Of a stretch of 64,000 bases of DNA, positions 1,564 to 58,954 are shown piece after piece. Numbering within the stretch: position 1 is the first letter of the stretch; every line of letters begins with the position of its first letter. The DNA is from Abditibacterium sp. (GTDB taxonomy: Bacteria; Armatimonadota; Abditibacteriia; Abditibacteriales; Abditibacteriaceae). The stretch lies in NCBI GenBank assembly GCA_965199495.1, contig CBDASK010000003.1, forward strand, positions 3,168,001 through 3,232,000, given 5' to 3'. Position numbers and translations under genes: made by a program. The notes under the pieces are model-generated. The model saw nothing but the letters and a program-made list of their open reading frames with translations, was not told the origin of the DNA and made no database searches.

Positions 1564-2604
1564 GTGACGCCCGATTCCATTTTGCGCGAGGCCATCGAAA
1601 ACGCCGCTTTTCCCGGCGCCGTGGCTTGGTGCGCGCGCGGCGAAAACGTGATGTTTCACGGTGCGCAGGGCCATTTGGGCCTCGCGCCGCCGTTCGATAA
1701 GCCCGCCGATTTAAACACGATTTACGATTTGGCTTCGCTCACCAAAATCTACGTGTTGGCCGCCGCGTTGCGCTGTTTGCGCGCGCACCAAATCGCGCTC
1801 GATACGCCGTTGGCCCATTTTCTCGACGGCTTCGCGCCGTCAATTACGCTCGCGCATTTGATGAATCATAGCAGCGGCCTCGATCTGCATCTGCAAGCGC
1901 TGACAGAACTTCCAATTGAACAATGGTTGCCCCAAATCCGTGTTGCGCCGATAACAGCCACGCCGGGCGAGCGCGTGCTTTATCTTTGCACCAACTATTT
2001 TTTGCTGGGCCGCGCGCTCGCTCAAATCGAGGGCGTGCCGCTCGAAACCATCGTCGAAAAATATGTTTTGAAACCCGCCAATCTGCGCGCGACGTTTGCG
2101 CCGATGGTTTTTGCCAACGTCGCGCCAACCGAAACGGACGGGCAAGGCGGCACTTTTCGCGGCATCGTTCACGACGAAGCCGCGCGCGCTTTTCGCGCGC
2201 AAACCGGCGATTGCGCGGGCAACGCCGGAGTGTTCGCCGACGCGCGAGATGTCGGCAAATTCGGCCAATTATGGCTGGACAATTTCTTCCATCCCGCCGA
2301 CGTGGCTGCTGTTTGCGCGCGTCCGTTGCCCGAAGAAAGCGGCGCGCGCGGATTGGGTTTTCAAATTGACAAACCGTTTTATATGAGCGACAAAGCGCCG
2401 CCTAATACGTGGGGACATCTGGGTTTTACCGGCCCGTCTCTGGTCATTCATCGCGCGACGAAAAGCGTGATTGTGCTGCTCAATAATCGCGTTCATCCCA
2501 CGCGCAACGGGCCGAATCGCATGCCGTGGCATCGCGCGCTGGCGGCGTGGAGTTTTTCGGATGTCGCATCCGTCCAGCGAATGAATTCGCGGCTGGGAGG
2601 CTAA
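1564..2604 (+). CDS. Serine hydrolase, beta-lactamase class C/AmpC-like family
   Basis: YDLASLTK (SxxK), YLCTNY, WGHLGFTG, LNNRVHP motifs; start uncertain (GTG 1564 vs ATG 1507). Confidence 0.88.
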   Translation: MTPDSILREAIENAAFPGAVAWCARGENVMFHGAQGHLGLAPPFDKPADLNTIYDLASLTKIYVLAAALRCLRAHQIALDTPLAHFLDGFAPSITLAHLMNHSSGLDLHLQALTELPIEQWLPQIRVAPITATPGERVLYLCTNYFLLGRALAQIEGVPLETIVEKYVLKPANLRATFAPMVFANVAPTETDGQGGTFRGIVHDEAARAFRAQTGDCAGNAGVFADARDVGKFGQLWLDNFFHPADVAAVCARPLPEESGARGLGFQIDKPFYMSDKAPPNTWGHLGFTGPSLVIHRATKSVIVLLNNRVHPTRNGPNRMPWHRALAAWSFSDVASVQRMNSRLGG

Positions 2605-2714
2605 AGCCGGAAGTCCGCCTACGCGGACACGAGATTACAACTGTTCTTCGTGTCCGCGCAGGCGGACTTCCGGCTTTAGCCTCCCAGCCGCGAATTTATT
2701 CGCTGGACGGATGC
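2566..2714. repeat. Composite REP-like inverted repeat (about 67-bp arms)
   Basis: GCATCCGTCCAGCGAATGAATTCGCGGCTG...GTCCGCCTACGCGGACACGA and its near-perfect reverse complement at 2648-2714. Confidence 0.9.
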
Positions 2715-2721
2715 TTTGAAC

Positions 2722-2760
2722 AATCCGAAATCTGACATCCGCCATCCGACATCTGAAATA
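2722..2760 (+). repeat. Tandem heptamer repeat (MATCYGA-like)
   Basis: aatccga aatctga catccgc catccga catctga; related units at 33936-33968 and 34057-34088. Confidence 0.7.
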
Positions 2761-2770
2761 CTTCAGCGCG

Positions 2771-4363
2771 ATGAAATTATTTTTCACAAGCGCGCTCACG
2801 TTGAGCGCGCTGAGTTGCGTTTGGGCCAAACCCGCGCCGACCCAATTGCCGCCCGCGACGCTAAAACAAATCGAAAGTTTGCTGCGCCATCCCGGCATTC
2901 AGAACGCGCGCGTCGGCATTTCGGTTGTGGCATTGGGCGAAGCGAAAACTCCGGCGCAATTTCCCGCCAATCCCTACGATAACGGCGCGCAACCTTTACT
3001 GTTTGGCCGCGACGAAACCAAGCGATTCACGCCCGCCAGCAATTTTAAATTGTTCACCGCGACGTGGGCCTTGAAAACGCTGGGGCCAAAAACTACGCTC
3101 GAAACGAAAGTTTTGGCCGCGCCCGCCACTTTTCTCAAGCCCGGTTCGTGGCCCGATAGTGAAAAGACGCCGACGGTTTTGACGCTCGTTGGCGGCGGCG
3201 ACCCTTCGCTTACGACCGAGGATATTCAGGCGCTGGCGCGTCAGATTACGTCGCCGATTGCGGGTGCCGACAAAGGATTTTTCGTGGTGCGCGCGCAAAA
3301 TTCCATCGCGGGCGATTTGCTCAACGGCGAATTTGGCGGGCACCGCTATCCCGACGGTTGGACGCTCGACGATGCGATTTGGTATTACGGCGCGCCCGTC
3401 ACCGGTCTGGCGGTCAATCGCAACGAGGTGGATGTGAAGATTACTGGCGCCGATAAAGCGGGCGAGCTGGCGCAAACCGCGAGCGAGCCAAATGCGCCAT
3501 TTCAAATTTTGTCCACGGTGATTACGGTGGATAAAACCGATGCGCGCGCCGGAAAAATTTCGTGGGACAGAGGCGATTCCGATTCGCCGCTGGGCAACAC
3601 GCTGCGCCTGCGCGGTTTTATCGCGGTCGGCGCCCGCGCGACCGAAGGTATTGCCGTCCCCGATCCGACGCAGTGGGCGGCCAACATTTTGGCCGACGAA
3701 ATCGTGGCGCAGGGCGGCAAAATCGCCCAACTGAGCAGTCCCTATTCGATTGACCAAGCCGTCGTCGTGGCGCGCCACCAATCAGCGCCGGTCGGCACGT
3801 TGATTCACCGCTTTCTCAAAAATTCCGATAATCTCTATGGCGAAATGCTGCTGCGCCGCGCCGGAGCCACGATTACCAAAGACGCGCCATTGCCACCAAA
3901 TTCGGGCGCCTCCATTTCGTCGGAGGGCGTGGCTGCAGTTGCGCACCGCAACCTTATCGGTTGGCTAATGCAAAACAAAGTGCCCGTTGCGGGTCTGCGT
4001 TTTTCCGACGGCAGCGGTCTGTCGCGCTACGATACAGCCACGCCGCTCGCCATCACGCGCGTGTTGGGTGTCGCGCAAACGTTGGACGGCGGCGATTTAT
4101 TCTACAACTCGCTCCCGATTGCTGGCGTTGATGGCACGCTAAAAAATCGTTTCAAAGATAGCGCCGCGCAGGGCAATTTGCACGGCAAAACCGGCACCTT
4201 TTCTACCGTCAATTGCCTGAGTGGCTACGTCACCACGCGCGACGGGCAACGTCTGGCGGTCTCGATTTTGACCAACTTCATCGAAGACAGCGAACTCGCC
4301 CGCAACTGGGAAGGCCGCATCATGGCGACTTTGGCGAACGCGAGTTGGACGGAGAAAAAATAA
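2771..4363 (+). CDS. dacB: D-alanyl-D-alanine carboxypeptidase/endopeptidase (PBP4, peptidase S13)
   Basis: Signal peptide; PASNFK, NSDN, DGSGLSR, HGKTGT motifs. Confidence 0.93.
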   Translation: MKLFFTSALTLSALSCVWAKPAPTQLPPATLKQIESLLRHPGIQNARVGISVVALGEAKTPAQFPANPYDNGAQPLLFGRDETKRFTPASNFKLFTATWALKTLGPKTTLETKVLAAPATFLKPGSWPDSEKTPTVLTLVGGGDPSLTTEDIQALARQITSPIAGADKGFFVVRAQNSIAGDLLNGEFGGHRYPDGWTLDDAIWYYGAPVTGLAVNRNEVDVKITGADKAGELAQTASEPNAPFQILSTVITVDKTDARAGKISWDRGDSDSPLGNTLRLRGFIAVGARATEGIAVPDPTQWAANILADEIVAQGGKIAQLSSPYSIDQAVVVARHQSAPVGTLIHRFLKNSDNLYGEMLLRRAGATITKDAPLPPNSGASISSEGVAAVAHRNLIGWLMQNKVPVAGLRFSDGSGLSRYDTATPLAITRVLGVAQTLDGGDLFYNSLPIAGVDGTLKNRFKDSAAQGNLHGKTGTFSTVNCLSGYVTTRDGQRLAVSILTNFIEDSELARNWEGRIMATLANASWTEKK

Positions 4364-4499
4364 GCCACCAAGTGCGCGAAGGGGCACAAAGATGGGAAAA
4401 GAAATTAATTTGTAAAAGCAAAACTATGAAATTTAGTTCTGTTCCTTTTTAATCTCTTTTCCCATCTTTGTGCCCCTTCGCGCACTTGGTGGCTTATTT
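4358..4499. repeat. Long inverted repeat (about 45-bp arms) between convergent genes, likely a bidirectional terminator
   Basis: AAATAAGCCACCAAGTGCGCGAAGGGGCACAAAGATGGGAAAAGA ... reverse complement ending 4499. Confidence 0.88.
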
Positions 4500-4935: not shown

Positions 4936-6204
4936 TTAATTCAACGGGCGCAAAACCATTCCCGTCATCAATTTTGGATAAAAATAAGTGGACTTCTGTG
5001 GCATCTTTTCGCCCGACGCCGCGACTTCCGCGACCTGTTTGGCGGGCGTCGCACGCATCAAAAACGCCGCTTGCGCCGCGCCGCTCTCGACTTTTTCTAT
5101 CGCTTCTGCCGCATGAATCGTGTAACCGACGTGCTGCCCCGCCGCGAGTTTGTCGGCGTCAATGCCCAGTTCTTGTTCCAAGATTTGGTTGTGCAAAACC
5201 GAAACGTCCAACTTTTCCAACGCGCTTTGGGCGTTATTTTCGCGGAGCGTCAAAAGATAGCTCTGGCCGGGCAAATGCAAACCTAATTTCGCATTTCCGC
5301 CTTCATCGGCCAGCGCCTTCGATACAGCCACGGCGCCGCCATCGAGCGGCGTAACATCGAACAACTGTTTCAATGATGCGGGCAAATTCGCGACTTTTTC
5401 TGGCTCGACATTTTGGATCAAACGATGCGTCGGCAACACGATTAAACCGGCATCGTTCATCGAAACGCACATCATCATCACGCCGTTGGCGGCTTCGGCG
5501 CCCGTCCAATTTTCGCCCGCTTTTTCGCGCTGTTCGCGCATATAATTGAGCGCTGTTTCGTAGCGATGATGCCCATCGGCGATGAGAATATTCTCGTTCT
5601 CGAAGCCGGCTTCGATGCCGTTGACGGTTTCGTCGTCGGTGATTTTCCACAAACGATGCACAACGCCCTCGCCATCAGTCGCCACGCCGTCCGGGGCAGT
5701 CTCGCTAACGCTGTCCAAAAGCAGTTCAACCCACGCATCGTCGTCGGCGATTAATCCGAAAATCGGCGAAATATTGGTTTGCGTAGCGCGCAACAAATTC
5801 AAGCGGTCAGCTTTGGGGCCGCTCAGCGTGTGTTCGTGCGGTTGCACGCCTTCGCCAAACTCTTCCAAAGTGAGAGCGCCCATCACGCCGCGCCGTTTAA
5901 CCGTGTCGGGCGTGCCGGGCACGGCGAACTCTTGTTCATAAAGATAATACGACGAATCGTCGCGCACCAAAACGCCTTCGCTGATCCACTGCGAAAGTAA
6001 ATCGGCGGATTGTTGGTATTGCCCCGCCGTGGCTGCTTCGCCGTAGGGCGCGGCCAGTTCGACGGCGACGATGTTATGCGCGTCGCGCTGCATAAGTTCG
6101 GCGCGCGCGTCGCCTTTGATCACGTCGTAAGGCGGGCAAATGACGGCGGAGAGATCGGCGTCGGAAGAATAGCGGAGACCGCGAAAGGGAAGAAATTGTG
6201 CCAT
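4936..6204 (-). CDS. DUF1015 family protein
   Basis: PFRGLRY, PPYDVI, PHEHTL, IADGHHRYETA, MPQKSTYFYPKL motifs. Confidence 0.9.
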   Translation of the reverse strand: MAQFLPFRGLRYSSDADLSAVICPPYDVIKGDARAELMQRDAHNIVAVELAAPYGEAATAGQYQQSADLLSQWISEGVLVRDDSSYYLYEQEFAVPGTPDTVKRRGVMGALTLEEFGEGVQPHEHTLSGPKADRLNLLRATQTNISPIFGLIADDDAWVELLLDSVSETAPDGVATDGEGVVHRLWKITDDETVNGIEAGFENENILIADGHHRYETALNYMREQREKAGENWTGAEAANGVMMMCVSMNDAGLIVLPTHRLIQNVEPEKVANLPASLKQLFDVTPLDGGAVAVSKALADEGGNAKLGLHLPGQSYLLTLRENNAQSALEKLDVSVLHNQILEQELGIDADKLAAGQHVGYTIHAAEAIEKVESGAAQAAFLMRATPAKQVAEVAASGEKMPQKSTYFYPKLMTGMVLRPLN

Positions 6205-6358: not shown

Positions 6359-8185
6359 CTAATTATCCAATAATGCCGCCCGCTTACGCGCGGAGGCCTC
6401 CAAATCGGAAGCCAACGCATCATCGCGTTCGGCGCACGCCGCCGCCAATCGCTCTTCGCTCTGGCCCAGCGCGGCCAGAACTTCGGCGCGCGCTAAAGCC
6501 GGGTTGACGGTTTGCGCGACGGCTTTTTGCAACGCATCGGAAAAGCTCAATTGCGCCGCGTCCATTTCAACATGATCGACTTGTTCGATGCCCGTCGCCA
6601 ACAGCGAAATGCCGGTCATCGCGGCGGGTTTTTCGATGTTCATCAAGTCGAGTAATGTCGGCGCGATGTCGGCCAAACGTCCGCCGCCACGCAAAACGGC
6701 GCCTTCGGGGAAATGGCCCCACAGCGCGCACGGAACCGGATTCGTCGTGTGCGCCGTGTGCGGCTCGCCGGTTATCGGGTCAACCATCACTTCGCAATTG
6801 CCGTGATCGGCGATGACAATTAAAGCGCCGCCAACGCCTTCGATGGCGTCCATCACTATGCCCAAACCTTCGTCAGTCGCTTCGACGGCTTCAATCGCTG
6901 CGCTCAAAATGCCGGTGTGACCGACCATATCGGGGTTGGCGAAGTTGAGAATAATCAAGTCCAAATTGCCGCTTTCGATGGCGTATTTGACCGATTCAGC
7001 GACTTCGGGTTCGCTCATTTCGGGCTGCAAATCGTAAGTCGCTACGTCGGGCGAATTAACTAAGCTGCGTTCTTCGCCCGTCCAGGGCGTTTCCATGCCG
7101 CCCGAAAAGAAGAACGTGACGTGCGGATACTTCTCGGTCTCAGCGATGCGCAACTGCGTTTTTCCGGCTTTGGCGACGGTTTCGCCCAGACCGTCGCGTT
7201 GTGGGCGCGGCCCGAACGCATACGGCGCGGTTTGGTTTTCCGCATAACGCGTCATCGTCGTCCATAAAACATCGGGACGCACTTTGCGCACAAACGGCGC
7301 GCGCTCCGCGTCGGGCGGCGTGGCTGGTAGGTCGGCGTCGAAGTCGGGATCCAAAAACACGTCGGTCAGTTCGCGGCCCCGATCCGAGCGATAATTAAAG
7401 AAAATGACCGCGTCGCCATCTTCGATGCGCGGGCGCGGGTTGCCGTCTTTGTCGAGAACAACCGTCGCGCCGATAAATTCGTCGGTTTCGCCGCGCTCGT
7501 AAGCGGCTTTAATCGCGCTAATCGCGTCGGGCGCGCTGTGGCCGATGCCCTGCGTCAACAGTTCATACGCCTGTTTCACGCGCGGCCAGCGCGTGTCTCT
7601 GTCCATCGCGTAATAGCGCCCGACGACCGAACCGACGCAACCGCATCCGGTTTTCATCATCTGTTCGAGCAAACGCGAAACGTAGCCCAGACCCGATTGC
7701 GGCGGCGTATCGCGCCCATCGGTGAAAACGTGAAATACGACTTTATCGCCGGTCAAACCGTGGCGCGCCGCCATTTCGAGTAAAGCGAAATAATGGCCTT
7801 CTGAGGCGTGAACGTTGCCATTTGAAGTCAAACCCAGCAAATGCAAACGCGTGTTATTTTCTTTGACTTTATGAATCGCGGCGAGCAAATTTTCGTTGTC
7901 GAAAAATTCGCCGGTGCGAATGGACTGGTCAATCAGCGACGAATCCTGAAACACGATGCGCCCGGCGCCGATGTTGAGATGGCCGACTTCGGAGTTGCCC
8001 ATCACGCCGGGCGGCAAACCAACGTCAACGCCGTGCGCGACGAGTTGCGTGTGCGGCCCGCGCATCAAACGGTCGTAGTTGGGCGTGCGCGCCTGCGCGA
8101 CGGCGTTATTTTCGGGGTTATCGGAAAGGCCCCAGCCGTCCAAAATGGTCAGCATCACGGGGCGCGGAGTGGTTTGTTCAGACAT
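6359..8185 (-). CDS. gpmI: 2,3-bisphosphoglycerate-independent phosphoglycerate mutase
   Basis: ILDGWG, MGNSEVGH, DGRD, GRYYAMDRD, AETEKYPHVT, DMVGHTG, ADHGN, HTAHT. Confidence 0.96.
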   Translation of the reverse strand: MSEQTTPRPVMLTILDGWGLSDNPENNAVAQARTPNYDRLMRGPHTQLVAHGVDVGLPPGVMGNSEVGHLNIGAGRIVFQDSSLIDQSIRTGEFFDNENLLAAIHKVKENNTRLHLLGLTSNGNVHASEGHYFALLEMAARHGLTGDKVVFHVFTDGRDTPPQSGLGYVSRLLEQMMKTGCGCVGSVVGRYYAMDRDTRWPRVKQAYELLTQGIGHSAPDAISAIKAAYERGETDEFIGATVVLDKDGNPRPRIEDGDAVIFFNYRSDRGRELTDVFLDPDFDADLPATPPDAERAPFVRKVRPDVLWTTMTRYAENQTAPYAFGPRPQRDGLGETVAKAGKTQLRIAETEKYPHVTFFFSGGMETPWTGEERSLVNSPDVATYDLQPEMSEPEVAESVKYAIESGNLDLIILNFANPDMVGHTGILSAAIEAVEATDEGLGIVMDAIEGVGGALIVIADHGNCEVMVDPITGEPHTAHTTNPVPCALWGHFPEGAVLRGGGRLADIAPTLLDLMNIEKPAAMTGISLLATGIEQVDHVEMDAAQLSFSDALQKAVAQTVNPALARAEVLAALGQSEERLAAACAERDDALASDLEASARKRAALLDN

Positions 8186-8241: not shown

Positions 8242-9174
8242 TCAAGCAGCCACGGCGCGCAGCAAGTCTTCGACATGACGGCGCGGCGGCGCGCCGAAAA
8301 AACGGCGATAATCGCGGCTGAAATGCGATGGGTCGTCGTAACCGACGCGCCCGCCCGCGCTGGCGGCGTCCAGTTCGCCCGCGAGCATCAGGCGTTTGGC
8401 CTCTTGCAAGCGCATCTGCTTGCCGAATTGCAGCGGGCTAAGGCCAGTCACGTCCTTGAAATGATGATGCAGCGCCGACAAACTCATGCCGGTTTCGCGC
8501 GCTAATTTTTCCAATTTTAGCGGCTTGTCGAAGTTCTGGCGCACCCATTCGATGGCGCCCAGAACGCGTTGCGTTTGTCCGCCGCTCGCCGCGATTTGAT
8601 GCAGACGCGGTGCTTGATCGGTTTGCAGCAGACGATAAACGATTTCGCGCGTTAACAAAGGCGCCAGAAATTTGGCGTCGTTTGGCGTCTCGAACAAACG
8701 CGCCAAACGCACGACGGCATCGAGCAAATTGGCGTTAATCGCGGGCGTTTCCATCGCCGCTAACGGCGCGCTGGAAGCTGGAAGTGCCAATTCGCTTTCG
8801 ACGAAGACCGAAGCGATGGTCGCCGCATCGAGTTCGAGCATGACCCACAAACACGGACAATGCGGCGTCGCTTCGATGACTTGTCCCGACGCGGGCAACG
8901 CGACTGAATTGAGCAAAAAGCGGCCTCGATTGTAGACCAAGTTTTGCGCGCCCATCGTAATTTGTTTGGCGCCTTGCGCCATGACGCACAGCATCGGCGT
9001 GTAAATCGCGTGGCTGGGCGCGGTTGGGCGATTGGCGCGCAAAGCCCACAGCGGCCCCAAACGAACGTGCGCGTCAAAATCGCCCAATGCCGCGCCCCCC
9101 GCGACGGCGCGTTCGATGATTTGTGCGAGTTCGTCCAATAAATTATCGAGTTCTGGCGAGTGTGAATTGGGCAT
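8242..9174 (-). CDS. AraC family transcriptional regulator (YqhC-like)
   Basis: AraC N-terminal domain plus C-terminal HTH (HHHFKDVTGLSPLQ...VGYDDPSHFSRDYRRFFG); divergent from ADH genes. Confidence 0.92.
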   Translation of the reverse strand: MPNSHSPELDNLLDELAQIIERAVAGGAALGDFDAHVRLGPLWALRANRPTAPSHAIYTPMLCVMAQGAKQITMGAQNLVYNRGRFLLNSVALPASGQVIEATPHCPCLWVMLELDAATIASVFVESELALPASSAPLAAMETPAINANLLDAVVRLARLFETPNDAKFLAPLLTREIVYRLLQTDQAPRLHQIAASGGQTQRVLGAIEWVRQNFDKPLKLEKLARETGMSLSALHHHFKDVTGLSPLQFGKQMRLQEAKRLMLAGELDAASAGGRVGYDDPSHFSRDYRRFFGAPPRRHVEDLLRAVAA

Positions 9175-11521: not shown

Positions 11522-12463
11522 TCAGCCCGCGTAAATTTCCAGTTCCCAATCTTCCAATTCCGGTTCGGGCGAATCGCGCGCGAACTCGACCGCCGCTTCG
11601 ATTTCGGCTTCGACAGCAGCAGCCACGGCGGCGTAATCGTCATCGCTAATATTCATCGCGCGACGCAATTGCAAAATTGGGTCGCGCAATTTTTCGCGGT
11701 CTTCTTCTTCGCGCGTGCGGTAATCGCGCATATCGCTTTTGGAGTGGCCGTAATAACGATAGGTTTTCATCTCCAACAAACTCGGCCCTTGGCCGTCGCG
11801 CGCGCGCGTGGCTGCTATCTCGACGGCATTGCGCACGGCGAAGAAATCGCTGCCATCGGTGACGCTGCCCGGCACGCCATAACCGATGGCGCGCGCGGCG
11901 ATGTCGGGCGTGGCGAAGGCTTCGTCGAAACGCGTGGACATCGCGTATTGATTGTTTTCGCAGATGAACAAAACCGGCAGTTTCCAGATCGCCGCCATAT
12001 TCAAACTTTCGTGAAACGTGCCCTGATTGGCGCCGCCCTCGCCGAAAAATGTGGCGACGATTTGCCCGCTTTCACGCATCTGCGCGCTCAAGCCCGCGCC
12101 GGTGGCTATTGGCAGGCCGCCTGCCGTGATGCCGTTTGAACCTAAAAAACCAATCCCATAATCGGCGACGTGCTGCGAGCCGCCGCGCCCTTTGCTCGGC
12201 CCGCCCGATTTCCCCCAGATTTCGGCCATCAAAGCCGGAGCGCTACCGCCTTTGGCCAGAAAATGGCCGTGCCCGCGATGCGTCGAAGTCATTAAATCGT
12301 CATCGCGCAAAACGGCGCACACGCCACAAGCCACGGCCTCTTGACCGGCGTAAAGATGCGACGTGCCTTTAATGACGCCGCTCGAAAACAGTTCGTCGAG
12401 CTTTTCTTCAAAGCGGCGAATTAAAAGCATCTGGCGCAAAACGGGGAGCAGTTGTTGGGGCAT
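11522..12463 (-). CDS. TPP-dependent dehydrogenase E1 alpha subunit (PdhA/AcoA-like)
   Basis: IRRFEE, HLYAGQEA, STHRGHGH, GEGGANQGTFHESLN..ENNQYA, YRYYGHS. Confidence 0.9.
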   Translation of the reverse strand: MPQQLLPVLRQMLLIRRFEEKLDELFSSGVIKGTSHLYAGQEAVACGVCAVLRDDDLMTSTHRGHGHFLAKGGSAPALMAEIWGKSGGPSKGRGGSQHVADYGIGFLGSNGITAGGLPIATGAGLSAQMRESGQIVATFFGEGGANQGTFHESLNMAAIWKLPVLFICENNQYAMSTRFDEAFATPDIAARAIGYGVPGSVTDGSDFFAVRNAVEIAATRARDGQGPSLLEMKTYRYYGHSKSDMRDYRTREEEDREKLRDPILQLRRAMNISDDDYAAVAAAVEAEIEAAVEFARDSPEPELEDWELEIYAG

Positions 12464-50103: not shown

Positions 50104-51117
50104 ATGACTCCTTCCGCGTCTCCTTCTGCTCCCGTTTATCTGCCGCCTAAACGCAAGTCTGGTTATGGTTTTTGGCCGTGGTTGGGCCTGATACTGTTTC
50201 TAATCATCAGCTTTTTTGGTTTGATTTTAGTTGCCGTCGTGATGGGTGATGAAATTAAACCAAGCGTGGGGTTAATCGAGCTTTCCGGCCCGATTAGCGA
50301 TAGCGGGGCGGGCGGTTTGTTGGGCGGCACATCGGGCGGCGCGCGCGGATTCATTCGCGAAGTCGAGGCGGCGCGCAAAGACGACAACATTAAATCCGTC
50401 GTGATTCGCATTAACTCGCCCGGCGGCGCGGCTTCGGCCTCGCAGGAAATGTATGAAGCCGTGATGCGATTGCGCAAAGCGAAACCCGTCATTTGCTCGA
50501 TGGGCGACGTGGCTGCATCGGGCGGCTATTACACCGCCGCCGCCTGCTCGAAAATTTACGCCAATCGAGCCACGACGACTGGCTCCATTGGCGTGATTAC
50601 CGAATTGCCCAATTATCAGGAGCTGGCCAAAAAAGTCGGCATCAGTCAGGCGATTATCAAAAGCGGCAAATTCAAGGATACCGGCAACCCGGCGCGGCCC
50701 CTGACTGCGCAAGAAAAACAACTGTTTCAAGGCTTAATTAACAATCTCTATAACCAGTTCGTCAACGATGTCGTCGCTGGGCGCAAAGAGGCGACCAAAG
50801 GACAACTGACGCGCGAAAAGTTGTTGAAACTGGCCGATGGTCGCGTTTATACCGGCGAACAGGCCGTGCAAAATAAGTTGGTTGACGAGACGGGCGATCT
50901 TTACACCGCCGTTGGTTATGCCGCCAGCGCAGGCGGTTTGAAAGAAGACGCGCCTGTCACACCGCTTTCGAGTGGTGGCGGTTTGAGTTCGTTGTTCGGC
51001 GCCAGCGCGCAATCGTTCGTCGGTGGCCTCTCCGAACAGGTTGGAGGCGCCTTTGCGCGTGGCGCAGTCGCCCAGTTCAAAAACGAGGCGAAGGATTTGC
51101 CAACGCCAACGTATTAA
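50104..51117 (+). CDS. sppA: Signal peptide peptidase SppA (36K type)
   Basis: RINSPGG, SMGDVAASGGYY, TGSIGVI, KSGKFKD, ADGRVYTG.QA. Confidence 0.93.
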   Translation: MTPSASPSAPVYLPPKRKSGYGFWPWLGLILFLIISFFGLILVAVVMGDEIKPSVGLIELSGPISDSGAGGLLGGTSGGARGFIREVEAARKDDNIKSVVIRINSPGGAASASQEMYEAVMRLRKAKPVICSMGDVAASGGYYTAAACSKIYANRATTTGSIGVITELPNYQELAKKVGISQAIIKSGKFKDTGNPARPLTAQEKQLFQGLINNLYNQFVNDVVAGRKEATKGQLTREKLLKLADGRVYTGEQAVQNKLVDETGDLYTAVGYAASAGGLKEDAPVTPLSSGGGLSSLFGASAQSFVGGLSEQVGGAFARGAVAQFKNEAKDLPTPTY

Positions 51118-54507: not shown

Positions 54508-56184
54508 ATGAATCGTTTTTCCGTCGCTTTACTCTGCGCGTTGCCCGCGCTCGCTTTCGGTTGCACGCCGACTAAAGCGCAGACGCCGCCGATTAATTTG
54601 CTGCGCGCCAACAATGCAGCCACGGCGCCGGTGTCGTCGCAATTACAAACGCAATTCGATAGTCGCGGCTTGATTAAATTGAGTTACAACGGCGCGACCT
54701 TGCTCGACGTGGCTGCTAATGGCGCCGGGTTGTTTGGTGTGGGCGATGTCCATTTTTTGGGCGCGAATGGAACGGTGACAAAAGAAAATTCGGGCGAACC
54801 GCGTCGCAGTTGGGACGACGCGGGCAAAACTTTAACTTTGGCTTATGATTGGGGCCGCGTAATTTGTCAATACGAAGTTCAGGGCGACCGTTTGAACTTG
54901 AATATCAGCGTCGAAAATACCGGACAACAAACATTAGCGGGCGTCAATTTGTTTCCGCTCGCGGTGCAGTTCACGTGCTTTCCCGATGGCTTCGATGCCA
55001 CGACGCCGCACGTCAATTTCAATCTCGATGGGCCGACGGTTCAATCCGCCGATTTCGGCGCGGGAAGTTTGACGATTGTGAATCGCGGTGTGACAAAACC
55101 TCTGGCAGTTGGATTTATTTCGACGAACGATACCGGCAAAACTTTTCGATACAACATTTACGTTGGCTCGGCGCCGTTGTGGTATCAACCGGGCAACTGG
55201 CCCAAATTTAACCGTCCGATTGCGCCCGGAGCGCGCGATGAATATCAAATTTCGCTGCGTTTTTCGCCGTCTAACCCAAGTAAAGAAAGCGCCGATGTGT
55301 TGCACGATTTCGCGACAGCGCATCCCTCAACGCTCAATTGGCTGGATCGGCGTCCGATTGGCGCGCTGTTTCTGGCGTCGTCGCTGATTGATCAGCCGCC
55401 CAATAATTTGCGCGGCTGGTTCTATAACGATAAAACCATTGATTTGAAGTCCGACGAGGGGCGCGCCAAATTTCGCGCGCGCGTGTTGGATTTCGCGCGC
55501 GACAGCGTGACCGAATTGCGCAAAGTCGGCGCACAGGGTGCGATTACGTGGGACATCGAGGGCCAGCAATATCCGCATTCGACGAGTTATATCGGCGACC
55601 CGCGTTTGCTTCCGCGATTGGCGCCCGAAATGGATGCTGTCGCCGACGATTATTTTCGCGTGTTCAAAGAGGCCGGATTCAAAGTTGGAATTTGCGTGCG
55701 CCCGCAGCAATTAACCTTCGGTGCCGATGGCAAACCCGACCAGAAAAATGTCGCGGACGAAGCGGCGATATTGATCGAAAAAATCGCTTACGCGAAAAAA
55801 CGTTGGGGCGCGACGCTGTTTTATGTGGATTCCAACGGCGGCCCATTCGACCCGTCCGATGCCGAAATTTTTCGGCGCGTGGCGGCGGCGTTTCCCGATG
55901 TTTTGCTGATGCCCGAACATCAGAACTTGAAATACCAAGCGTATACCGCGCCTTATAATGATTTGCGTTTTGACGATTCGATTACGCCCGACGAAGTGCG
56001 CGTGGCTTATCCGCGCGCCTTTAGCGTGATCAACGGCGAGGCGGCGCAATTGACCAAACGCCGCGCTGAATTGGTGCGCGCGGTGCGCGCGGGCGACGTT
56101 TTGGTTTTCAACGCGTGGTATGACAGCGACGAGGGCAAATTGGTGAAAAACATTTACGATGAGGCCAAGGCAGGCGGCGGCTAA
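54508..56184 (+). CDS. Lipoprotein with beta-sandwich plus putative glycoside-hydrolase-like TIM barrel
   Basis: Lipobox AFGC; WDIEGQ, FYVDS, LMPEH motifs. Confidence 0.75.
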   Translation: MNRFSVALLCALPALAFGCTPTKAQTPPINLLRANNAATAPVSSQLQTQFDSRGLIKLSYNGATLLDVAANGAGLFGVGDVHFLGANGTVTKENSGEPRRSWDDAGKTLTLAYDWGRVICQYEVQGDRLNLNISVENTGQQTLAGVNLFPLAVQFTCFPDGFDATTPHVNFNLDGPTVQSADFGAGSLTIVNRGVTKPLAVGFISTNDTGKTFRYNIYVGSAPLWYQPGNWPKFNRPIAPGARDEYQISLRFSPSNPSKESADVLHDFATAHPSTLNWLDRRPIGALFLASSLIDQPPNNLRGWFYNDKTIDLKSDEGRAKFRARVLDFARDSVTELRKVGAQGAITWDIEGQQYPHSTSYIGDPRLLPRLAPEMDAVADDYFRVFKEAGFKVGICVRPQQLTFGADGKPDQKNVADEAAILIEKIAYAKKRWGATLFYVDSNGGPFDPSDAEIFRRVAAAFPDVLLMPEHQNLKYQAYTAPYNDLRFDDSITPDEVRVAYPRAFSVINGEAAQLTKRRAELVRAVRAGDVLVFNAWYDSDEGKLVKNIYDEAKAGGG

Positions 56185-56218: not shown

Positions 56219-56247
56219 TTGCGCCTCGCGCTCAGTCTTGTTAAAAT
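56219..56247 (+). promoter_or_regulatory. sigma70 promoter of rpsA
   Basis: TTGCGC-17-TAAAAT with TGn extended -10. Confidence 0.55.
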
Positions 56248-56399
56248 GGGATAGGTTTTCTCTCGCATTTTCCTCTTGCCGCCGCCAGATTTTTCTCTCG
56301 CGAACGCTTTGGGTTAAATCAATCATATCGAGAGAAGCAAATTTTGATGCCTTAGAGATTGGCTTTGCCTGATTTTTTCGCGCTCCAAGGACAACTGCT

Positions 56400-58118
56400 G
56401 TGGCAGATACCCCCAACAACGACACGCCCGTGACCCCCGACATCCAGAATTCCGCAACCCCTCCCGTCGAGCAGGAAACGGCCCCGACTTCCTCCGGCAC
56501 CCCCGGAACGACCGGCGCCGTTTCCACCGATGGTGCCCCCGAACAGATCGAAACGCAAGTCTCGACCTCGACGCCCGAAACCGCCGCCGCGACAGCAGCC
56601 ACGGCGCCCGCTTCTGAGGCTGCTCCCGCCGCTGATGTGCCCGCGCCCGCTTCAACGCCCGCAACGGCGGCCCCAACTCCGGTGCCCGCTCCGGCTCCCG
56701 CTCCCGTTGGCAAACAGCCTTCGATGGAGCAGGTCATGGAATCGGACGAATTCGCCGAATACATGAGCGGCGCCCAGTCGCTGGAGCGCAATGCACTCGT
56801 CACCGGAATTGTTGTCCGTCTCGAAGAGAACGGCAGCATCTTGGTTGACATCGGCTCCAAAAGCGAGGGCATTATCCCGCGCTCCGAGATCGGCGACGAC
56901 GAAGTCGAAGTCGGCGCCGAAGTTGAGTGTCTGGTCGTGCGCCCCGAAGACGAAGAGGGCCATCCGATTCTGTCCAAGCGCCGCGCCGATTTTGAGAAGA
57001 CGCGCCGCGACGTGGCTGCCGCCCGCGAGTCGGGCGAAGTCTTGCAAGCCACCGTCAAAGACGCCGTTAAAGGCGGCTTGATCGTGGATTTGGGCATTGA
57101 CGCGTTCGTGCCCGCTTCGCACGTTGACCAACGCGTGCGCGGTCAGCTCGAACGTTTGGTCGGCCAGATTTTGCCAGTCAAAGTCATCGAAACCGACTTC
57201 CGCAAAGGCCGCGACAAAGTCATCGCGTCGCACCGTTTGGCTTATGCCGAAGAGCGCGATAAACGCGAGTCGGAAGCGTGGGACAGCATCGAGAAAGACA
57301 AAATCGTTGAGGGCGTGGTGCGCCGCATTACCGAGTTCGGCGCTTTCGTTGACATCGGCGGTTTGGACGGTTTGCTGCACGTCCGCGAAATGGCGTGGAG
57401 CCGCGTGGATCATCCGTCGAGCGTAGTGAAAAAAGGCCAGAAATTGCAGGTCTTGATTCTCGATATTGACGAAGAACGTCGCCGCGTCGCGTTGGGTTTG
57501 AAACAGTTGTTGCCCGATCCGTGGAAAAAGGCCGCGAAAAACTACAGCGTTGGCCAAGTCGTGCCGATCAAAGTTTTGCGTTTGGCGCCGACGGTCGCGT
57601 TTGTCGAACTCGAACCCGGCATTGAAGCGATTATCCCGATTTCCGAATTGTCGGAAGACCGCATCAACAAACCCGAAGACGCGGTTTCCATCGGTCAAGA
57701 AGTCGAAGGCCGCATCAAGAGCATTCAGCCCAACCAGCGCCGCATTACCATGAGTTTGCGCGCGGCTGTCGCCGAAAAAGAGCGCCGCGAGACGCGCACT
57801 GCGGTGCGCGAAGTCAACCAGCGCGCGGGCGAAGATGGCCCGCTTTCGTTGGGCGATTTGTTCGGCAAAGAGCTGCGCGCCGTGCGCGACCGTGGTCGCA
57901 ACCGTGACCGCGACGAGGCGCGCTCGCGCGCTCAGGAAGAGGCCGACGATGCCGACTTCGAGGAAATCGAGGCCGAGTTGGATGACAACGCGACCGCCGC
58001 GATGGACGAAGAAGTCGCCGTTGACGATGCGCCCGCCGTGGCTGCATCGGACGAAGCACCAGCCGATGAACCCGAACCGGGTTCGCTGGCCGCAGCGTTG
58101 AAAAATGCGGGTGCGTAA
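56400..58118 (+). CDS. rpsA: 30S ribosomal protein S1 (four S1 domains, long disordered termini)
   Basis: VDIGSKSEG, VKGGLIVDLG..AFVPAS, FGAFVDIGG.DGLLH..E.AW..V.HP, LGLKQL.PDPW, SLGDL. Confidence 0.93.
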   Translation: MADTPNNDTPVTPDIQNSATPPVEQETAPTSSGTPGTTGAVSTDGAPEQIETQVSTSTPETAAATAATAPASEAAPAADVPAPASTPATAAPTPVPAPAPAPVGKQPSMEQVMESDEFAEYMSGAQSLERNALVTGIVVRLEENGSILVDIGSKSEGIIPRSEIGDDEVEVGAEVECLVVRPEDEEGHPILSKRRADFEKTRRDVAAARESGEVLQATVKDAVKGGLIVDLGIDAFVPASHVDQRVRGQLERLVGQILPVKVIETDFRKGRDKVIASHRLAYAEERDKRESEAWDSIEKDKIVEGVVRRITEFGAFVDIGGLDGLLHVREMAWSRVDHPSSVVKKGQKLQVLILDIDEERRRVALGLKQLLPDPWKKAAKNYSVGQVVPIKVLRLAPTVAFVELEPGIEAIIPISELSEDRINKPEDAVSIGQEVEGRIKSIQPNQRRITMSLRAAVAEKERRETRTAVREVNQRAGEDGPLSLGDLFGKELRAVRDRGRNRDRDEARSRAQEEADDADFEEIEAELDDNATAAMDEEVAVDDAPAVAASDEAPADEPEPGSLAAALKNAGA

Positions 58119-58128
58119 TAATTAGCCA

Positions 58129-58170
58129 AAAAGAAAAGCGGGCGTCCAGCAATGGGCGCCCGCTTTTTTG
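58129..58170 (+). terminator. Intrinsic terminator
   Basis: AAAAGCGGGCGTCCA-GCAA-TGGGCGCCCGCTTTTTTG. Confidence 0.8.
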
Positions 58171-58293
58171 TATTTTGCGTTGAAATTAAGCCATGACGAA
58201 AATTTTAGATGTCGCCTCATTGCCAGATTCTTTGTGGCTGGGAAACGCATGAAAAGCATCGCGGATGCTTCTACTTTGAGGTAAGATAAAGCT

Positions 58294-58539
58294 ATGACGA
58301 AAACATTGGATGTATCGGCGTGGCCCCAACTGGCCGAAATTCTAAGCGCGATTGGCGAAGATGAGGCCATTGTTCTGACACAAAACGGGCGCGTAATTGC
58401 CGAAGTGAAACCGGTGGAGGAAGGCTCTACCGAAAAACCAAAAGAAAGAGTTTTCGGGCTTGGCGCAGGAGAGGGATATTACATGGCAGATGATTTTGAT
58501 GCCGAGTTGCCAGATTCATTCTGGTTGGGAGAAGAATGA
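58294..58539 (+). CDS. Phd/YefM-type antitoxin with DUF2281-like C-terminus
   Basis: E.IVLT.NG..IAEV.P...R.FG......MADDFDAELPD; ATGA overlap with the PIN toxin. Confidence 0.85.
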   Translation: MTKTLDVSAWPQLAEILSAIGEDEAIVLTQNGRVIAEVKPVEEGSTEKPKERVFGLGAGEGYYMADDFDAELPDSFWLGEE

Positions 58540-58922
58540 AAATTCTAAGCGACACGCACATATTCATTTGGTTTTCGCAAGACTCCGCTCAACTTTCTCG
58601 CTCTGCGCACGATTTATTGAAAAACCCCGCTAACGAAATCTTCTTGAGCATTGCCAGTGTTTGGGAAATCCAGATAAAATTGGACATCAAAAAGCTGGCT
58701 TTACCGCTTCCGCTTCCAGATCTGATTACCCTTCAGCAACGCGTCAACAACATTCAAATTCTGCCCATCGAACCGCGTCACATCTATGCTTTAAGCGATT
58801 TGCCGATGCACCATCGCGATCCGTTCGACCGGTTGCTCATCGCGCAATCTGTCACGGAGGCGATGCCGATCTTAACGGCGGACGCGGTTTTCGACCGCTA
58901 TGACGCGCAAATTTTGCGTTGA
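58536..58922 (+). CDS. vapC: VapC family PIN-domain toxin
   Basis: ILSDTHIFIW, S.AS.WE..IK, HHRDPFDRLLIAQ, LTAD. Confidence 0.92.
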   Translation: MKILSDTHIFIWFSQDSAQLSRSAHDLLKNPANEIFLSIASVWEIQIKLDIKKLALPLPLPDLITLQQRVNNIQILPIEPRHIYALSDLPMHHRDPFDRLLIAQSVTEAMPILTADAVFDRYDAQILR

Positions 58923-58925
58923 AAG

Positions 58926-58954
58926 TTGCAGCCACGCGCCGGAGTTGGTATAAT
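58926..58954 (+). promoter_or_regulatory. sigma70 promoter of the str operon
   Basis: TTGCAG-17-TATAAT with TGn extended -10. Confidence 0.75.

What the first reader, a model, noticed from the sequence alone, without database searches (positions are those of the whole stretch)
1955..58936. Highly iterated non-palindromic motif (G)CAGCCACG: candidate new DNA uptake sequence
Seen: I counted about 43 copies of the 8-mer by eye. There are 22 as CAGCCACG (1955, 4035, 5325, 8247, 11620, 18950, 22255, 22888, 25572, 27969, 28734, 30437, 32719, 38262, 39589, 41995, 45034, 47461, 52520, 54617, 56596, 58929) and 21 as CGTGGCTG (2301, 3928, 6028, 7319, 9009, 11807, 16525, 19361, 22685, 26559, 28180, 30208, 38455, 41000, 41925, 43246, 45424, 50508, 54708, 57011, 58037). 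About 29 carry the full 9-mer GCAGCCACG, often extended to ACAGCAGCCACGGCG. A rough zero-order estimate, assuming about 57% GC, gives about 3 (8-mer) and about 1 (9-mer) expected. The motif sits inside CDS in all six frames (VAA, AAT, SHV, PWL, RGC, QPR) and often uses GCT/GCA codons that look uncommon here, which points to DNA-level selection. Established: about 1 per 1-1.5 kb, no strand bias, non-palindromic and embedded in core genes is how Neisseria DUS and Pasteurellaceae USS behave, whereas Chi and KOPS are strand-skewed and HIP1 is palindromic. Inference: a self-DNA uptake signal or genome-wide protein-binding site that I do not know to be described for this lineage. Type IV pilus genes are present in this window.
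Basis: partly seen in the sequence, partly recalled or inferred. Interest (0 to 1): 0.9.

Follow-up and report, generated by a model that had tools for sequence, protein, structure and literature searches.

The report
Strand-aware hyper-abundant genome word CAGCCACG
An Abditibacteriaceae bacterium and its two closest relatives have written one short DNA word about every 1.5 kb through their genes, against their own codon habits, and copies on the same strand keep about 1 kb apart, which suggests an unidentified machine that reads the word on one strand.

Summary
CAGCCACG occurs 46 times in the window against about 2 expected. It occurs 3083 times on the 4.7-Mb chromosome, equally on both strands, and sits at chance level on the two small replicons. 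The full motif is [G>A]CAGCCACG[G/C/T]CG.

A synonymous-codon null expects 259 copies in genes; 2789 are seen. Copies arose in place by point substitutions and are conserved about twice as well as other 8-mers.

Among 27 Abditibacteriaceae genomes only three species carry the word. One of them uses the same core with different flanks. Sister clades carry unrelated hyper-abundant words, some palindromic.

The new result is that same-strand copies exclude each other within about 1 kb, while opposite-strand copies are independent. A small control set of Neisseria-type uptake-sequence contigs shows this only weakly.

My best reading (0.42) is a self-DNA tag spread by biased transmission during DNA exchange and read on one strand or directionally. 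Uptake itself is untested and no reader was found. The main rival is a methylation-linked repair ratchet of the kind proposed for cyanobacterial HIP1.

This scan has noted similar hyper-abundant words in other genomes, but none in this family.

The parts
1..970 (-). 3' part of a 362-aa T2SSE (PilT-sized) ATPase gene, the only pilus-type gene touching the window. It is context, not part of the motif.
   Evidence: Pfam T2SSE E 1.5e-51.
1955..1962 (+). motif copy, full 11-mer
   Evidence: sense, peptide TAT (own ORF-based gene model)
2301..2308 (-). motif copy, full 11-mer
   Evidence: antisense, DVAA
3928..3935 (-). motif copy, core only
   Evidence: antisense, GVAA
4035..4042 (+). motif copy, full 11-mer
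   Evidence: sense, TAT
5325..5332 (+). motif copy, full 11-mer
   Evidence: antisense, AVAV
6028..6035 (-). motif copy, full 11-mer
   Evidence: sense, AAT
7319..7326 (-). motif copy, full 11-mer
   Evidence: sense, PAT
8247..8254 (+). motif copy, full 11-mer
   Evidence: antisense, AVAA
9009..9016 (-). motif copy, core only
   Evidence: sense, PSHA
11620..11627 (+). motif copy, full 11-mer
   Evidence: antisense, AVAA
11807..11814 (-). motif copy, core only
   Evidence: sense, AAT
16525..16532 (-). motif copy, full 11-mer
   Evidence: antisense, DVAV
18950..18957 (+). motif copy, full 11-mer
   Evidence: antisense, RGC
19361..19368 (-). motif copy, core only
   Evidence: sense, QPR
   Evidence: antisense, AVAG
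22255..22262 (+). motif copy, core only
   Evidence: antisense, FVAA. With 22888 it forms the only same-strand pair under 750 bp in the window.
22685..22692 (-). motif copy, full 11-mer
   Evidence: sense, AAT
22888..22895 (+). motif copy, full 11-mer
   Evidence: antisense, AVAD
25572..25579 (+). motif copy, core only
   Evidence: antisense, TWL
26559..26566 (-). motif copy, core only
   Evidence: sense, AAT
27969..27976 (+). motif copy, full 11-mer
   Evidence: antisense, AVAA
28180..28187 (-). motif copy, full 11-mer
   Evidence: sense, TAT
28734..28741 (+). motif copy, core only
   Evidence: antisense, AWL
30208..30215 (-). motif copy, full 11-mer
   Evidence: sense, RSHV
30437..30444 (+). 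motif copy, full 11-mer
   Evidence: antisense, PWL
32719..32726 (+). motif copy, full 11-mer
   Evidence: antisense, AVAA
   Evidence: sense, AAT
   Evidence: antisense, LVAG
38262..38269 (+). motif copy, full 11-mer
   Evidence: sense, AAT
38455..38462 (-). motif copy, full 11-mer
   Evidence: antisense, DVAA
39589..39596 (+). motif copy, full 11-mer
   Evidence: antisense, AVAA
41000..41007 (-). motif copy, full 11-mer
   Evidence: sense, PAT
41925..41932 (-). motif copy, full 11-mer
   Evidence: sense, QPR
41995..42002 (+). motif copy, core only
   Evidence: antisense, RVAA
43246..43253 (-). motif copy, full 11-mer
   Evidence: antisense, AVAA
45034..45041 (+). motif copy, full 11-mer
   Evidence: sense, AAT
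45424..45431 (-). motif copy, core only
   Evidence: antisense, AWL
47461..47468 (+). motif copy, full 11-mer
   Evidence: sense, PAT
50508..50515 (-). motif copy, full 11-mer
   Evidence: antisense, DVAA
52520..52527 (+). motif copy, full 11-mer (inside polA)
   Evidence: sense, RSHV
54617..54624 (+). motif copy, full 11-mer
   Evidence: sense, AAT
54708..54715 (-). motif copy, full 11-mer
   Evidence: antisense, DVAA
56596..56603 (+). motif copy, full 11-mer
   Evidence: sense, AAT
57011..57018 (-). motif copy, full 11-mer
   Evidence: antisense, DVAA
58037..58044 (-). motif copy, full 11-mer
   Evidence: antisense, AVAA
58929..58936 (+). motif copy, core only, at a gene edge or intergenic

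Best explanation
CAGCCACG, in full [G>A]CAGCCACG[G/C/T]CG, is a lineage-specific self-DNA tag. It accumulates because DNA carrying it is transmitted preferentially during homologous DNA exchange between cells, most plausibly natural transformation through the intact ComEA/ComEC/DprA route. An unidentified sequence-specific factor reads the tag. I infer that the factor reads one strand or works directionally, for example on the single strand that enters the cell or as a tracking enzyme in the manner of Chi, and does not act as an orientation-blind surface receptor. On this reading one copy covers roughly 0.5-1 kb of its own strand. A second same-strand copy inside that range gains no transmission advantage, so it does not arise or it decays. 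Copies on the other strand form an independent set. Shown here: the enrichment, its independence from codon usage, in-place origin by substitution, extra conservation, clade restriction with a flank variant, depletion on foreign DNA, and strand-specific exclusion. Inferred: the link to transformation, and single-strand or directional reading.
For: Enrichment: 46 copies against 1.9 expected in the window and 3083 on the chromosome. Codon-aware null: 2789 copies in genes against a mean of 259 (largest 282) in 20 synonymous shuffles, and the peptide AATA is written GCAGCCACGGCG in 279 of 363 cases against 1.6 expected. Both strands are equal and no genome bin is strongly skewed. The small replicons sit at chance level, at 0.08-0.09 copies per kb against 0.65; windows with GC below 0.50 hold 1.4 copies per 10 kb against 6.2-6.9 elsewhere. 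In-place origin: at 34 aligned sites in motif-less congeners, 1 has the word, 9 have the identical peptide with other codons and 15 differ by one residue. Maintenance: 119 of 171 G000 copies are conserved in G011 (0.70), against 0.36 for all 8-column windows and 0.39 for GC-matched ones. There is also turnover, with 52 G000-only and 31 G011-only copies. Clade restriction: 3 of 27 family genomes hold 2676-3503 copies and the other 24 hold 130-530, the level of the reversed control. Flank variant: G004 keeps the core at 0.70 per kb but with flanks gACAC-core-TCC-tA. Strand-specific exclusion: the same-strand pair density ratio g for the 8-mer is 0.09-0.15 below 100 bp, 0.29 at 100-300 bp, 0.54 at 500-750 bp and about 1 beyond 1.5 kb, while opposite-strand g is about 1. 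Eight control 8-mers cluster instead of excluding. 62.9% of neighbouring copies alternate strand, against 50.0 +/- 0.9% in permutations. Within a fixed peptide class, AAT is written as the word in 4.5% of cases when a same-strand copy lies within 250 bp and in 55-61% beyond 1.5 kb, but in a flat 33-44% against distance to the opposite-strand copy; VA[AGVDE] behaves the same way, rising from 5.6% to 46%. The same exclusion appears in G011, G004, G017 and, for a palindromic word, in G035. Import genes are intact: ComEA (SLBB+HHH_3), ComEC (DUF4131+Competence+Lactamase_B) and DprA. Precedents: HIP1 raises transformation in a methylation-dependent way, possibly through uptake or processing or in a Chi-like manner (abstract of bioRxiv 10.1101/2024.09.10.611283; PMC13756078, sections 4 and 14). 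Oriented repeats are read on incoming single-stranded DNA by SsnA in Neisseria (PMC11893778, passages).
Against: Nothing here shows uptake or transformation, and competence has not been described for this phylum in the papers I could find. ComEC is in 27 of 27 family genomes, so the import genes do not track the motif. No ComP_DUS homologue was found in 27 genomes, though nothing rang in the controls either. No candidate reader was found: the Dna2-like nuclease-helicase was rejected. Published uptake in H. influenzae does not depend on orientation (PMC1939737, passages). In my 498-kb DUS control, single DUS copies show only weak strand-specific exclusion, with 66 same-strand against 102 opposite-strand pairs at 100-1000 bp. 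The signature therefore differs from the classical uptake sequence. Sister clades carry unrelated words, some palindromic and built around AGTACT, which look like methyltransferase or restriction targets. Divergence between species is flat around copies, so no recombination or repair gradient is visible. Earlier notes of this scan report similar words in giant viruses, which do not transform (unchecked).
Confidence: 0.42

Rival explanations
1. A methylation-linked repair ratchet, the model proposed for cyanobacterial HIP1. A methyltransferase marks the word, on one strand only because the word is not palindromic. A repair system uses the mark to choose a strand, so errors that destroy a copy are corrected and errors that create one persist. 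Each marked copy serves about 1 kb of its own strand, which would explain strand-specific exclusion without any DNA exchange.
For: Sister clades carry unrelated palindromic words with restriction-site-like cores: WTCGAGTACTCGAW in G032-G035 and GCAAGTACTTGC in G014. Changes of that kind are typical of changing methyltransferase specificity. The genome holds many DNA methyltransferases, several of them large fused enzymes of 790-1433 aa. HIP1 is tied to the methylases DmtC and DmtA, and Elhai's ratchet model is described in PMC13756078, section 4. One-strand marking would naturally make + and - copies independent (inference).
Against: The known strand-choosing nickases do not track the motif. 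Vsr is over its cut-off only in G004, G017 and G016. MutH is found only in four motif-less genomes and in none of the genomes where I saw a hyper-abundant word. No methyltransferase could be assigned to the clade. Divergence between G000 and G011 or G004 does not fall near copies. No methylome is available: the runs found are kept only as contigs.
Confidence: 0.25
2. A binding site for a chromosome-organising or chromosome-processing protein, kept at regular spacing by natural selection and not by biased transmission. This is the structural role that has been proposed for the quasi-periodic HIP1.
For: Spacing is more regular than random: the coefficient of variation of same-strand spacing is 0.85, and 0.70 for the palindromic word in G035. 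Copies are conserved. Quasi-periodicity of HIP1 was read this way (PMC13756078, section 4, citing Xu et al. 2018).
Against: Selection on a single copy would need to outweigh both codon preference and amino-acid changes at thousands of sites. The two strands form independent sets, which is not expected for a double-strand architectural site. Close relatives with similar genomes have no such word. The word changes completely between sister clades.
Confidence: 0.12
3. A Chi-like signal for double-strand-break repair. A translocating helicase-nuclease is switched by the word in one orientation. Breaks occur anywhere in a genome without replichore structure, so both orientations are kept, each evenly spaced.
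For: The behaviour is orientation-specific and has a range. The genome shows no GC skew or gene-strand bias, so the usual replication-linked skew of Chi need not appear. A Chi-like role was suggested for HIP1 (abstract of bioRxiv 10.1101/2024.09.10.611283).
Against: No RecC was found. The AddA and RecB models hit only a UvrD-like helicase, at 70 and 67 bits against cut-offs of 708 and 696. Only two PD-(D/E)XK_1 proteins were found. The one nuclease-helicase candidate is truncated in motif-bearing G011, present in motif-less G016, and not found in G032-G035. The enrichment over a codon-aware null, using rare codons, is stronger than I recall for known Chi sites (recalled, not tested).
Confidence: 0.1
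4. Remnants of a small mobile or REP-like repeat that spread by insertion.
For: In G004 many copies sit in long inverted-repeat hairpins: 59 close convergent pairs in 400 kb, 27 of them at one spacing, with A-runs and T-runs outside the stems.
Against: In G000 information is confined to about 12 bases with no conserved flanks. 90% of copies lie inside genes. Orthologous sites in relatives align without gaps and differ by point substitutions. Single copies with G004-type flanks also exist outside hairpins.
Confidence: 0.03

Closest known systems
DNA uptake sequences: DUS of Neisseriaceae (ComP receptor, dialects) and USS of Pasteurellaceae
   Same: A 10-12-base non-palindromic word at about one copy per kb, equal on both strands, mostly inside genes and imposed on codons and peptides. 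It is depleted on foreign DNA, conserved, and restricted to a clade with a flank variant in a relative. The spacing is fairly even.
   Different: The phylum and the sequence are different. No ComP-type pilin was found. Close inverted pairs lie inside genes and are not terminators: 72 of 85 are in coding sequence and 2 of 85 have a T-run. Same-strand exclusion is strong here (g 0.1-0.5) but weak in my DUS control, with 66 against 102 pairs. Published USS uptake does not depend on orientation (PMC1939737, passages). An uptake bias is untested.
HIP1 (GCGATCGC) and alternative HIPs of cyanobacteria
   Same: A hyper-abundant word that spreads by substitutions, is conserved in coding and non-coding DNA, is quasi-periodic, and is replaced by other words in some lineages. 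The host genomes have weak replichore structure. HIP1 has recently been linked to transformation (PMC13756078, sections 4 and 14; abstract of bioRxiv 10.1101/2024.09.10.611283). The palindromic words in the sister clades G032-G035 and G014 look HIP-like.
   Different: The word in this genome is not a palindrome, so its two orientations can be told apart, and they behave independently. No cognate methyltransferase has been identified.
Chi sites of RecBCD/AddAB
   Same: An over-represented 8-mer with orientation-dependent behaviour.
   Different: RecBCD and AddAB were not found, there is no replication-linked skew, and the word uses rare codons.
NTS repeats read by the single-strand nuclease SsnA in Neisseria
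   Same: An oriented genomic repeat read on incoming single-stranded DNA during transformation (PMC11893778, passages). This is a precedent for strand-specific reading.
   Different: NTS is a hairpin of about 30 bases, is almost never inside genes, occurs in hundreds of copies, and lowers transformation. No Ssn search was made here.

Membership tests
DUS/USS-type uptake sequence | Hyper-abundance beyond base, dinucleotide and codon expectation | tested here: met
   46 against 1.9; 2789 against 259 under synonymous shuffling
DUS/USS-type uptake sequence | Both orientations equally frequent, no replichore skew | tested here: met
   1558 + and 1525 -; no strongly skewed bin
DUS/USS-type uptake sequence | Depletion on plasmids, phages and islands | tested here: met
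   C1 and C2 hold 0.08-0.09 per kb against 0.65; low-GC windows hold 1.4 per 10 kb against 6.2-6.9
DUS/USS-type uptake sequence | Conserved core with lineage-specific variants in relatives | tested here: met
   G004 has the same core with flanks gACAC / TCC-tA; G011 has the same logo as G000
DUS/USS-type uptake sequence | Close inverted pairs that serve as transcription terminators | tested here: not met
   G000 has 85 close pairs; 72 are in coding sequence and 2 have a T-run. G004 does have hairpins flanked by A-runs and T-runs.
DUS/USS-type uptake sequence | Cognate surface receptor (ComP minor pilin for DUS) | tested here: inconclusive
   PF16732 matched 0 of 27 genomes, but no control genome rang either
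DUS/USS-type uptake sequence | Action independent of orientation | tested here: not met
   Same-strand copies exclude each other and opposite-strand copies do not. The DUS control is only weakly strand-specific.
DUS/USS-type uptake sequence | Preferential uptake or transformation by motif-bearing DNA | not testable with these tools
   Needs uptake or transformation assays
HIP1-type iterated palindrome | Palindromic word | tested here: not met
   CAGCCACG is not a palindrome. Palindromic words occur in the sister clades G032-G035 and G014.
HIP1-type iterated palindrome | Spreads by substitution, without insertions or deletions | tested here: met
   Gap-free orthologous alignments that differ by point changes
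HIP1-type iterated palindrome | Cognate DNA methyltransferase | tested here: inconclusive
   Many methyltransferases are present and none could be assigned. No methylome is available.
HIP1-type iterated palindrome | Quasi-periodic spacing | tested here: met
   Same-strand spacing CV 0.85, with an exclusion zone
Chi site | RecBCD, AddAB or AdnAB present | tested here: not met
   No RecC. AddA and RecB models score far below their cut-offs. Only two PDDEXK_1 proteins were found.
Chi site | Co-orientation with replication | tested here: not met
   No skew in any bin, and the genome itself shows no replichore structure
REP/MITE-type repeat | Longer conserved unit, intergenic, spread by insertion | tested here: not met
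   Information is limited to about 12 bases; 9.4% of copies are intergenic; origin is by substitution

The most novel reading that the evidence does not exclude
Abditibacteriaceae possess a general, still unknown genome-watermark machinery whose specificity switches between unrelated words, both asymmetric and palindromic, in different clades. This would be a strand-aware relative of DUS, USS and HIP1 in a phylum with no known gene exchange system. The exclusion statistic would become a general way to tell strand-reading tags from surface-receptor tags in any genome.
Probability: 0.3. Interest if true: 0.85.

Novelty: new variant of a known kind. Interest (0 to 1): 0.72.

Why it matters
Sequence-specific self-DNA tags are established experimentally in only two proteobacterial families, and HIP1 in cyanobacteria has recently been proposed as a third case. 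This clade belongs to the barely studied Abditibacteriota and has a tag of comparable strength. Sister clades carry unrelated tags, which makes the family a natural experiment in how such specificities arise and switch. The strand-specific exclusion zone is a sequence-only measurement that constrains the mechanism to a reader working on one strand or in one direction, with a reach of about 1 kb. It can be applied to any genome with such a word. If the tag governs DNA exchange, it also offers a practical way to make these bacteria genetically tractable, by putting the word on transforming DNA.

Tried and rejected
- Rfam scan of the window: no match.
- Maximal-order Markov null: observed counts roughly equal expected counts, because the sub-words carry the enrichment. 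This null is uninformative; lower orders and the codon null were used instead.
- Replichore test: the genome has no usable GC skew or gene-strand bias. Only per-bin strand counts could be used.
- Vsr and MutH as ratchet nucleases: neither correlates with the motif.
- Methyltransferase orthology across the genus: too many paralogues to resolve.
However, it is truncated in G011, present in G016 (no word seen in 122 kb), and not found in G032-G035. Rejected.
- ComP_DUS: no match, and no positive control.
- Directionality: weak or one-off copies are not significantly more depleted on one side of strong copies, at 27 against 43 and 105 against 99.
- Divergence gradient around copies: flat.
- Slippage deletion between close direct repeats as the cause of exclusion: other 11-mer direct repeats are in excess at short range, at 7.2x below 100 bp and 1.4-1.7x up to 1 kb. 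It is not a general force here, though it is not strictly excluded for this word.
- Coding or intergenic labelling of G004 copies with an ORF mask: useless, because the mask covered 93-95% of the sequence.
- Sequencing runs: 2 rows, both kept only as contigs, so no read-level signal of modification could be had.
- Earlier-findings look-up by sequence: nothing.
- Literature: a search for the word itself gave 1,208 papers, and the 20 listed were unrelated primers or viruses. 'Abditibacterium' gave 62 papers, and none of the 15 listed concerns genome motifs. None of the 12 papers listed contains 'Abditibacteriota'. No supplementary files were consulted.

Full report
**Identity and setting**

The window is G000:C3:3168001-3232000, part of a 4.72-Mb chromosome. 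The assembly also holds two small replicons of 24.7 and 64.6 kb, and its GC content is 55.7%.

The closest named relatives of the window's DNA polymerase I are metagenome-assembled genomes labelled Abditibacteriales or Abditibacteriaceae, at 92%, 58% and 56% identity. The organism is therefore a member of the Abditibacteriaceae.

The window encodes ordinary housekeeping genes, including polA, S1, S12/S7, iPGM and KsgA. The only pilus-type gene is one 362-aa T2SSE ATPase at the left edge, and its neighbours are unrelated genes.

- CAGCCACG occurs 46 times in the window (24 on +, 22 on -), against 1.89 +/- 1.50 in shuffles.
- The 9-mer occurs 30 times against 0.66 expected.
- Genome-wide there are 1558 + and 1525 - copies on the chromosome (0.65 per kb). 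The small replicons hold only 2 and 6 copies (0.08-0.09 per kb), which is the level of the reversed-word control.
- Conditioning on the rest of the word shows a strict motif, [G>A]CAGCCACG[G 690 / C 357 / T 276 / A 27]CG. Positions A-G-C-C-A-C-G and the terminal CG are 95-99% fixed. The flanks further out carry no information.

**It is a DNA-level phenomenon**

I used an ORF-based gene model of my own (3464 genes, 82.5% coding). With it, 2789 copies lie in genes, against 259 on average (largest 282) in 20 shuffles that keep each protein and its codon usage.

The peptide AATA is written GCAGCCACGGCG in 279 of 363 cases, against 1.6 expected. The codons involved, GCA (6.0%) and GCT (10.1%), are the rare alanine codons.

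Two reading frames hold 2023 of the 3083 copies, and 9.4% of copies are intergenic against 17.5% of the sequence.

At 34 sites aligned without gaps to motif-less congeners (73% identity), only 1 carries the word. Nine encode the same peptide with other codons and 15 differ by one residue, often a conservative one. Copies therefore arise in place by point substitutions, and some of these change the protein.

**Maintenance and turnover**

Against 400 kb of G011 (85.0% identity), 119 copies are shared, 52 are G000-only and 31 are G011-only. G000 copies are conserved at 0.70, against 0.36 for all 8-column windows and 0.39 for GC-matched ones.

**Distribution among relatives**

Among 27 family genomes, the 8-mer is hyper-abundant in exactly three species of one genus: G000 (3091), G011 (2676) and G004 (3503). 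The other 24 hold 130-530 copies, the same as the reversed control.

G004 keeps the core at 0.70 per kb but with different flanks, gACAC-CAGCCACG-TCC-tA. About 40% of its copies sit in long convergent hairpins with A-runs and T-runs outside the stems. This is a flank variant in the sense of the DUS dialects.

**Other words in the family**

- Four species of a sister genus (G032-G035) carry CGAGTACTC 5100-6800 times, against 0-23 elsewhere. In G035 the word is the palindrome WTCGAGTACTCGAW at 1.01 per kb.
- G014 carries GCAAGTACTTGC, with 40 sites in 60 kb.
- G017 carries AGTACGGTCGA, often as a 24-base palindrome, with 61 sites in 60 kb.
- G003 has CACACGTGTG at low density.
- No such word was seen in 40-122 kb samples of G002, G006, G009, G010, G016 or G038.

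**The new result: strand-specific exclusion**

Neighbouring copies alternate strand in 62.9% of cases, against 50.0 +/- 0.9% in 2000 permutations (largest 53.0%).

The pair density ratio g (observed over random expectation) for same-strand copies is:

| Distance | g, 8-mer | g, full 11-mer |
|---|---|---|
| below 100 bp | 0.09-0.15 | 0.07 |
| 100-300 bp | 0.29 | 0.13 |
| 300-500 bp | 0.35 | 0.25 |
| 500-750 bp | 0.54 | 0.45 |
| 750-1000 bp | 0.78 | 0.68 |
| beyond 1.5 kb | about 1 | about 1 |

Opposite-strand pairs stay at about 1 at all distances, apart from a 3-4-fold excess at 9-30 bp. Eight control 8-mers of similar abundance cluster on the same strand instead.

The effect holds within genes (146 same-strand against 451 opposite-strand pairs at 40-750 bp) and across gene boundaries (126 against 230).

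The cleanest test fixes the peptide:

| Peptide class | Same-strand copy within 250 bp | 250-500 bp | 0.5-1 kb | Beyond 1.5 kb | By distance to nearest opposite-strand copy |
|---|---|---|---|---|---|
| AAT written as the word | 4.5% | 13% | 31% | 55-61% | flat, 33-44% |
| VA[AGVDE] written as the word | 5.6% | 10% | 23% | 39-46% | 21-27% out to 5 kb |

The same exclusion is seen in G011 (74 same-strand against 145 opposite-strand neighbours), in G004 (85 against 191) and in G017 (17 against 43). For the palindrome in G035, g is 0.14-0.22 at 30-300 bp and 1.0 beyond 500 bp. In the window itself, 34 of 45 neighbour pairs alternate, and there is 1 same-strand pair under 750 bp against 16 opposite-strand pairs.

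**What the exclusion rules in and out**

- A general loss of close direct repeats is unlikely. Other 11-mer direct repeats are in excess at short range.
- An orientation-blind reader does not predict the pattern.
- As a control I used 28 non-overlapping metagenome loci (498 kb) that carry the canonical DUS core (a recalled motif). They were chosen from the loci. Single DUS copies there show 127 same-strand against 137 opposite-strand neighbours, and 66 against 102 pairs at 100-1000 bp. That is the same direction but far weaker. The control is a mixture of species and was selected through inverted DUS pairs.
- Published work reports that USS uptake does not depend on orientation (PMC1939737, passages) and that close inverted USS pairs act as terminators (PMC7811141, passage).
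- Here 72 of 85 close inverted pairs lie in coding sequence and only 2 have T-runs.

**Search for a reader**

- ComEA, ComEC and DprA are intact. ComEC is present in all 27 family genomes, so it does not discriminate.
- No ComP_DUS domain was found, but the search had no positive control.
- No RecC was found. AddA and RecB models hit nothing beyond a UvrD-like helicase, far below their cut-offs.
- The one nuclease-helicase, a Dna2-like protein of 1421 aa, fails as a candidate.
- Vsr and MutH do not track the words.
- Methyltransferases are numerous and unresolved.
- No methylome could be obtained.
- Divergence is flat around copies, and no upstream/downstream asymmetry was detected.

**Interpretation**

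The data show a strong, sequence-specific, strand-aware force that creates and keeps this word. The force has a reach of about 0.5-1 kb and acts only in one clade.

I judge the most likely mechanism (0.42) to be biased transmission during homologous DNA exchange, read on one strand or directionally. Two precedents make this plausible. HIP1 enhances transformation in a methylation-dependent way, possibly in a Chi-like manner (abstract of bioRxiv 10.1101/2024.09.10.611283; PMC13756078, sections 4 and 14). SsnA reads oriented repeats on incoming single-stranded DNA in Neisseria (PMC11893778, passages).

A one-strand methylation and repair ratchet (0.25) explains the strand independence equally well. 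The restriction-site-like palindromes in sister clades favour it, but it lacks any identified nuclease or methylase. The other rivals are architectural binding under selection (0.12), a Chi-like repair signal without known machinery (0.10) and a mobile repeat (0.03).

**Relation to earlier work**

I found no paper on such words in this phylum (listings only, and no supplements were read).

Earlier notes of this scan describe comparable hyper-abundant words in other bacteria and in giant viruses. I did not check them. They suggest the phenomenon is wider than the two textbook families, and the viral cases argue against assuming uptake by default.

Noticed in passing
G032-G035 (whole-genome counts); G035:C1:1000001-1400000 = L172-L191: A second, unrelated hyper-abundant word occurs in a sister genus. 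It is the palindrome WTCGAGTACTCGAW, at 1.01 per kb in G035. The 9-mer CGAGTACTC is counted 5100-6800 times in four genomes against 0-23 in the other 23. It has its own exclusion zone (g 0.14-0.22 at 30-300 bp; spacing CV 0.70).
   Followed up: partly
G014:C6:300001-360000 (L201-L203); G017:C14:200001-260000 (L204-L206); G003 C1-C3 (L093-L095): There are further lineage-specific words. G014 has GCAAGTACTTGC (40 sites in 60 kb). G017 has AGTACGGTCGA, often as the 24-base palindrome AGTACGGTCGAATTCGACCGTACT (61 sites in 60 kb, 20 close inverted pairs). G003 has CACACGTGTG (10 counts in 60 kb). Several share an AGTACT or GTAC centre.
   Followed up: partly
G004:C3:100001-300000 and 1000001-1200000 (L130-L149): In G004 the core word sits in hairpins of about 50 bases (GACACCAGCCACGTCCTAC ... 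GTAGGACGTGGCTGGTGTC), with A-runs upstream and T-runs downstream. They look like bidirectional terminators or REP-type elements. There are 59 close convergent pairs, 27 of them at spacing 33.
   Followed up: partly
G000:C3 whole chromosome: There is no replichore-scale GC skew (bins within +/-0.02) and no gene-strand bias along the chromosome, which is unusual for a bacterial chromosome of this size. (CG)n-type words such as CGCGCGCGC are also very frequent, at 3093 copies.
   Followed up: no
G000:C3:2766475-2774998 (outside the window): A CRISPR-like array of 131 repeats with a 65-base period lies inside one of the largest motif-free gaps.
   Followed up: partly
G000:C3:4111365-4115630 (L109:6365-10630, minus strand): A 1421-aa protein has an N-terminal PD-(D/E)XK nuclease and a C-terminal SF1 (AAA_11/AAA_12) helicase, and lies next to a bacterial topoisomerase IB gene. 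Its distribution is patchy: G004 86% identity, G016 45%, G017 42%. In G011 it is truncated to residues 680-1421 with a frame break.
   Followed up: partly
G006 C12, C23, C24 (L102-L104): Long poly-C/poly-G runs are present: the 10-base C run is counted 36 times in 60 kb.
   Followed up: no
G000:C3:1119395-1224542: A cluster of the largest motif-free gaps (11-18 kb, GC 0.48-0.54) contains a type I HsdM gene and a 1433-aa N6-methyltransferase-domain protein. It is probably a set of acquired islands.
   Followed up: no
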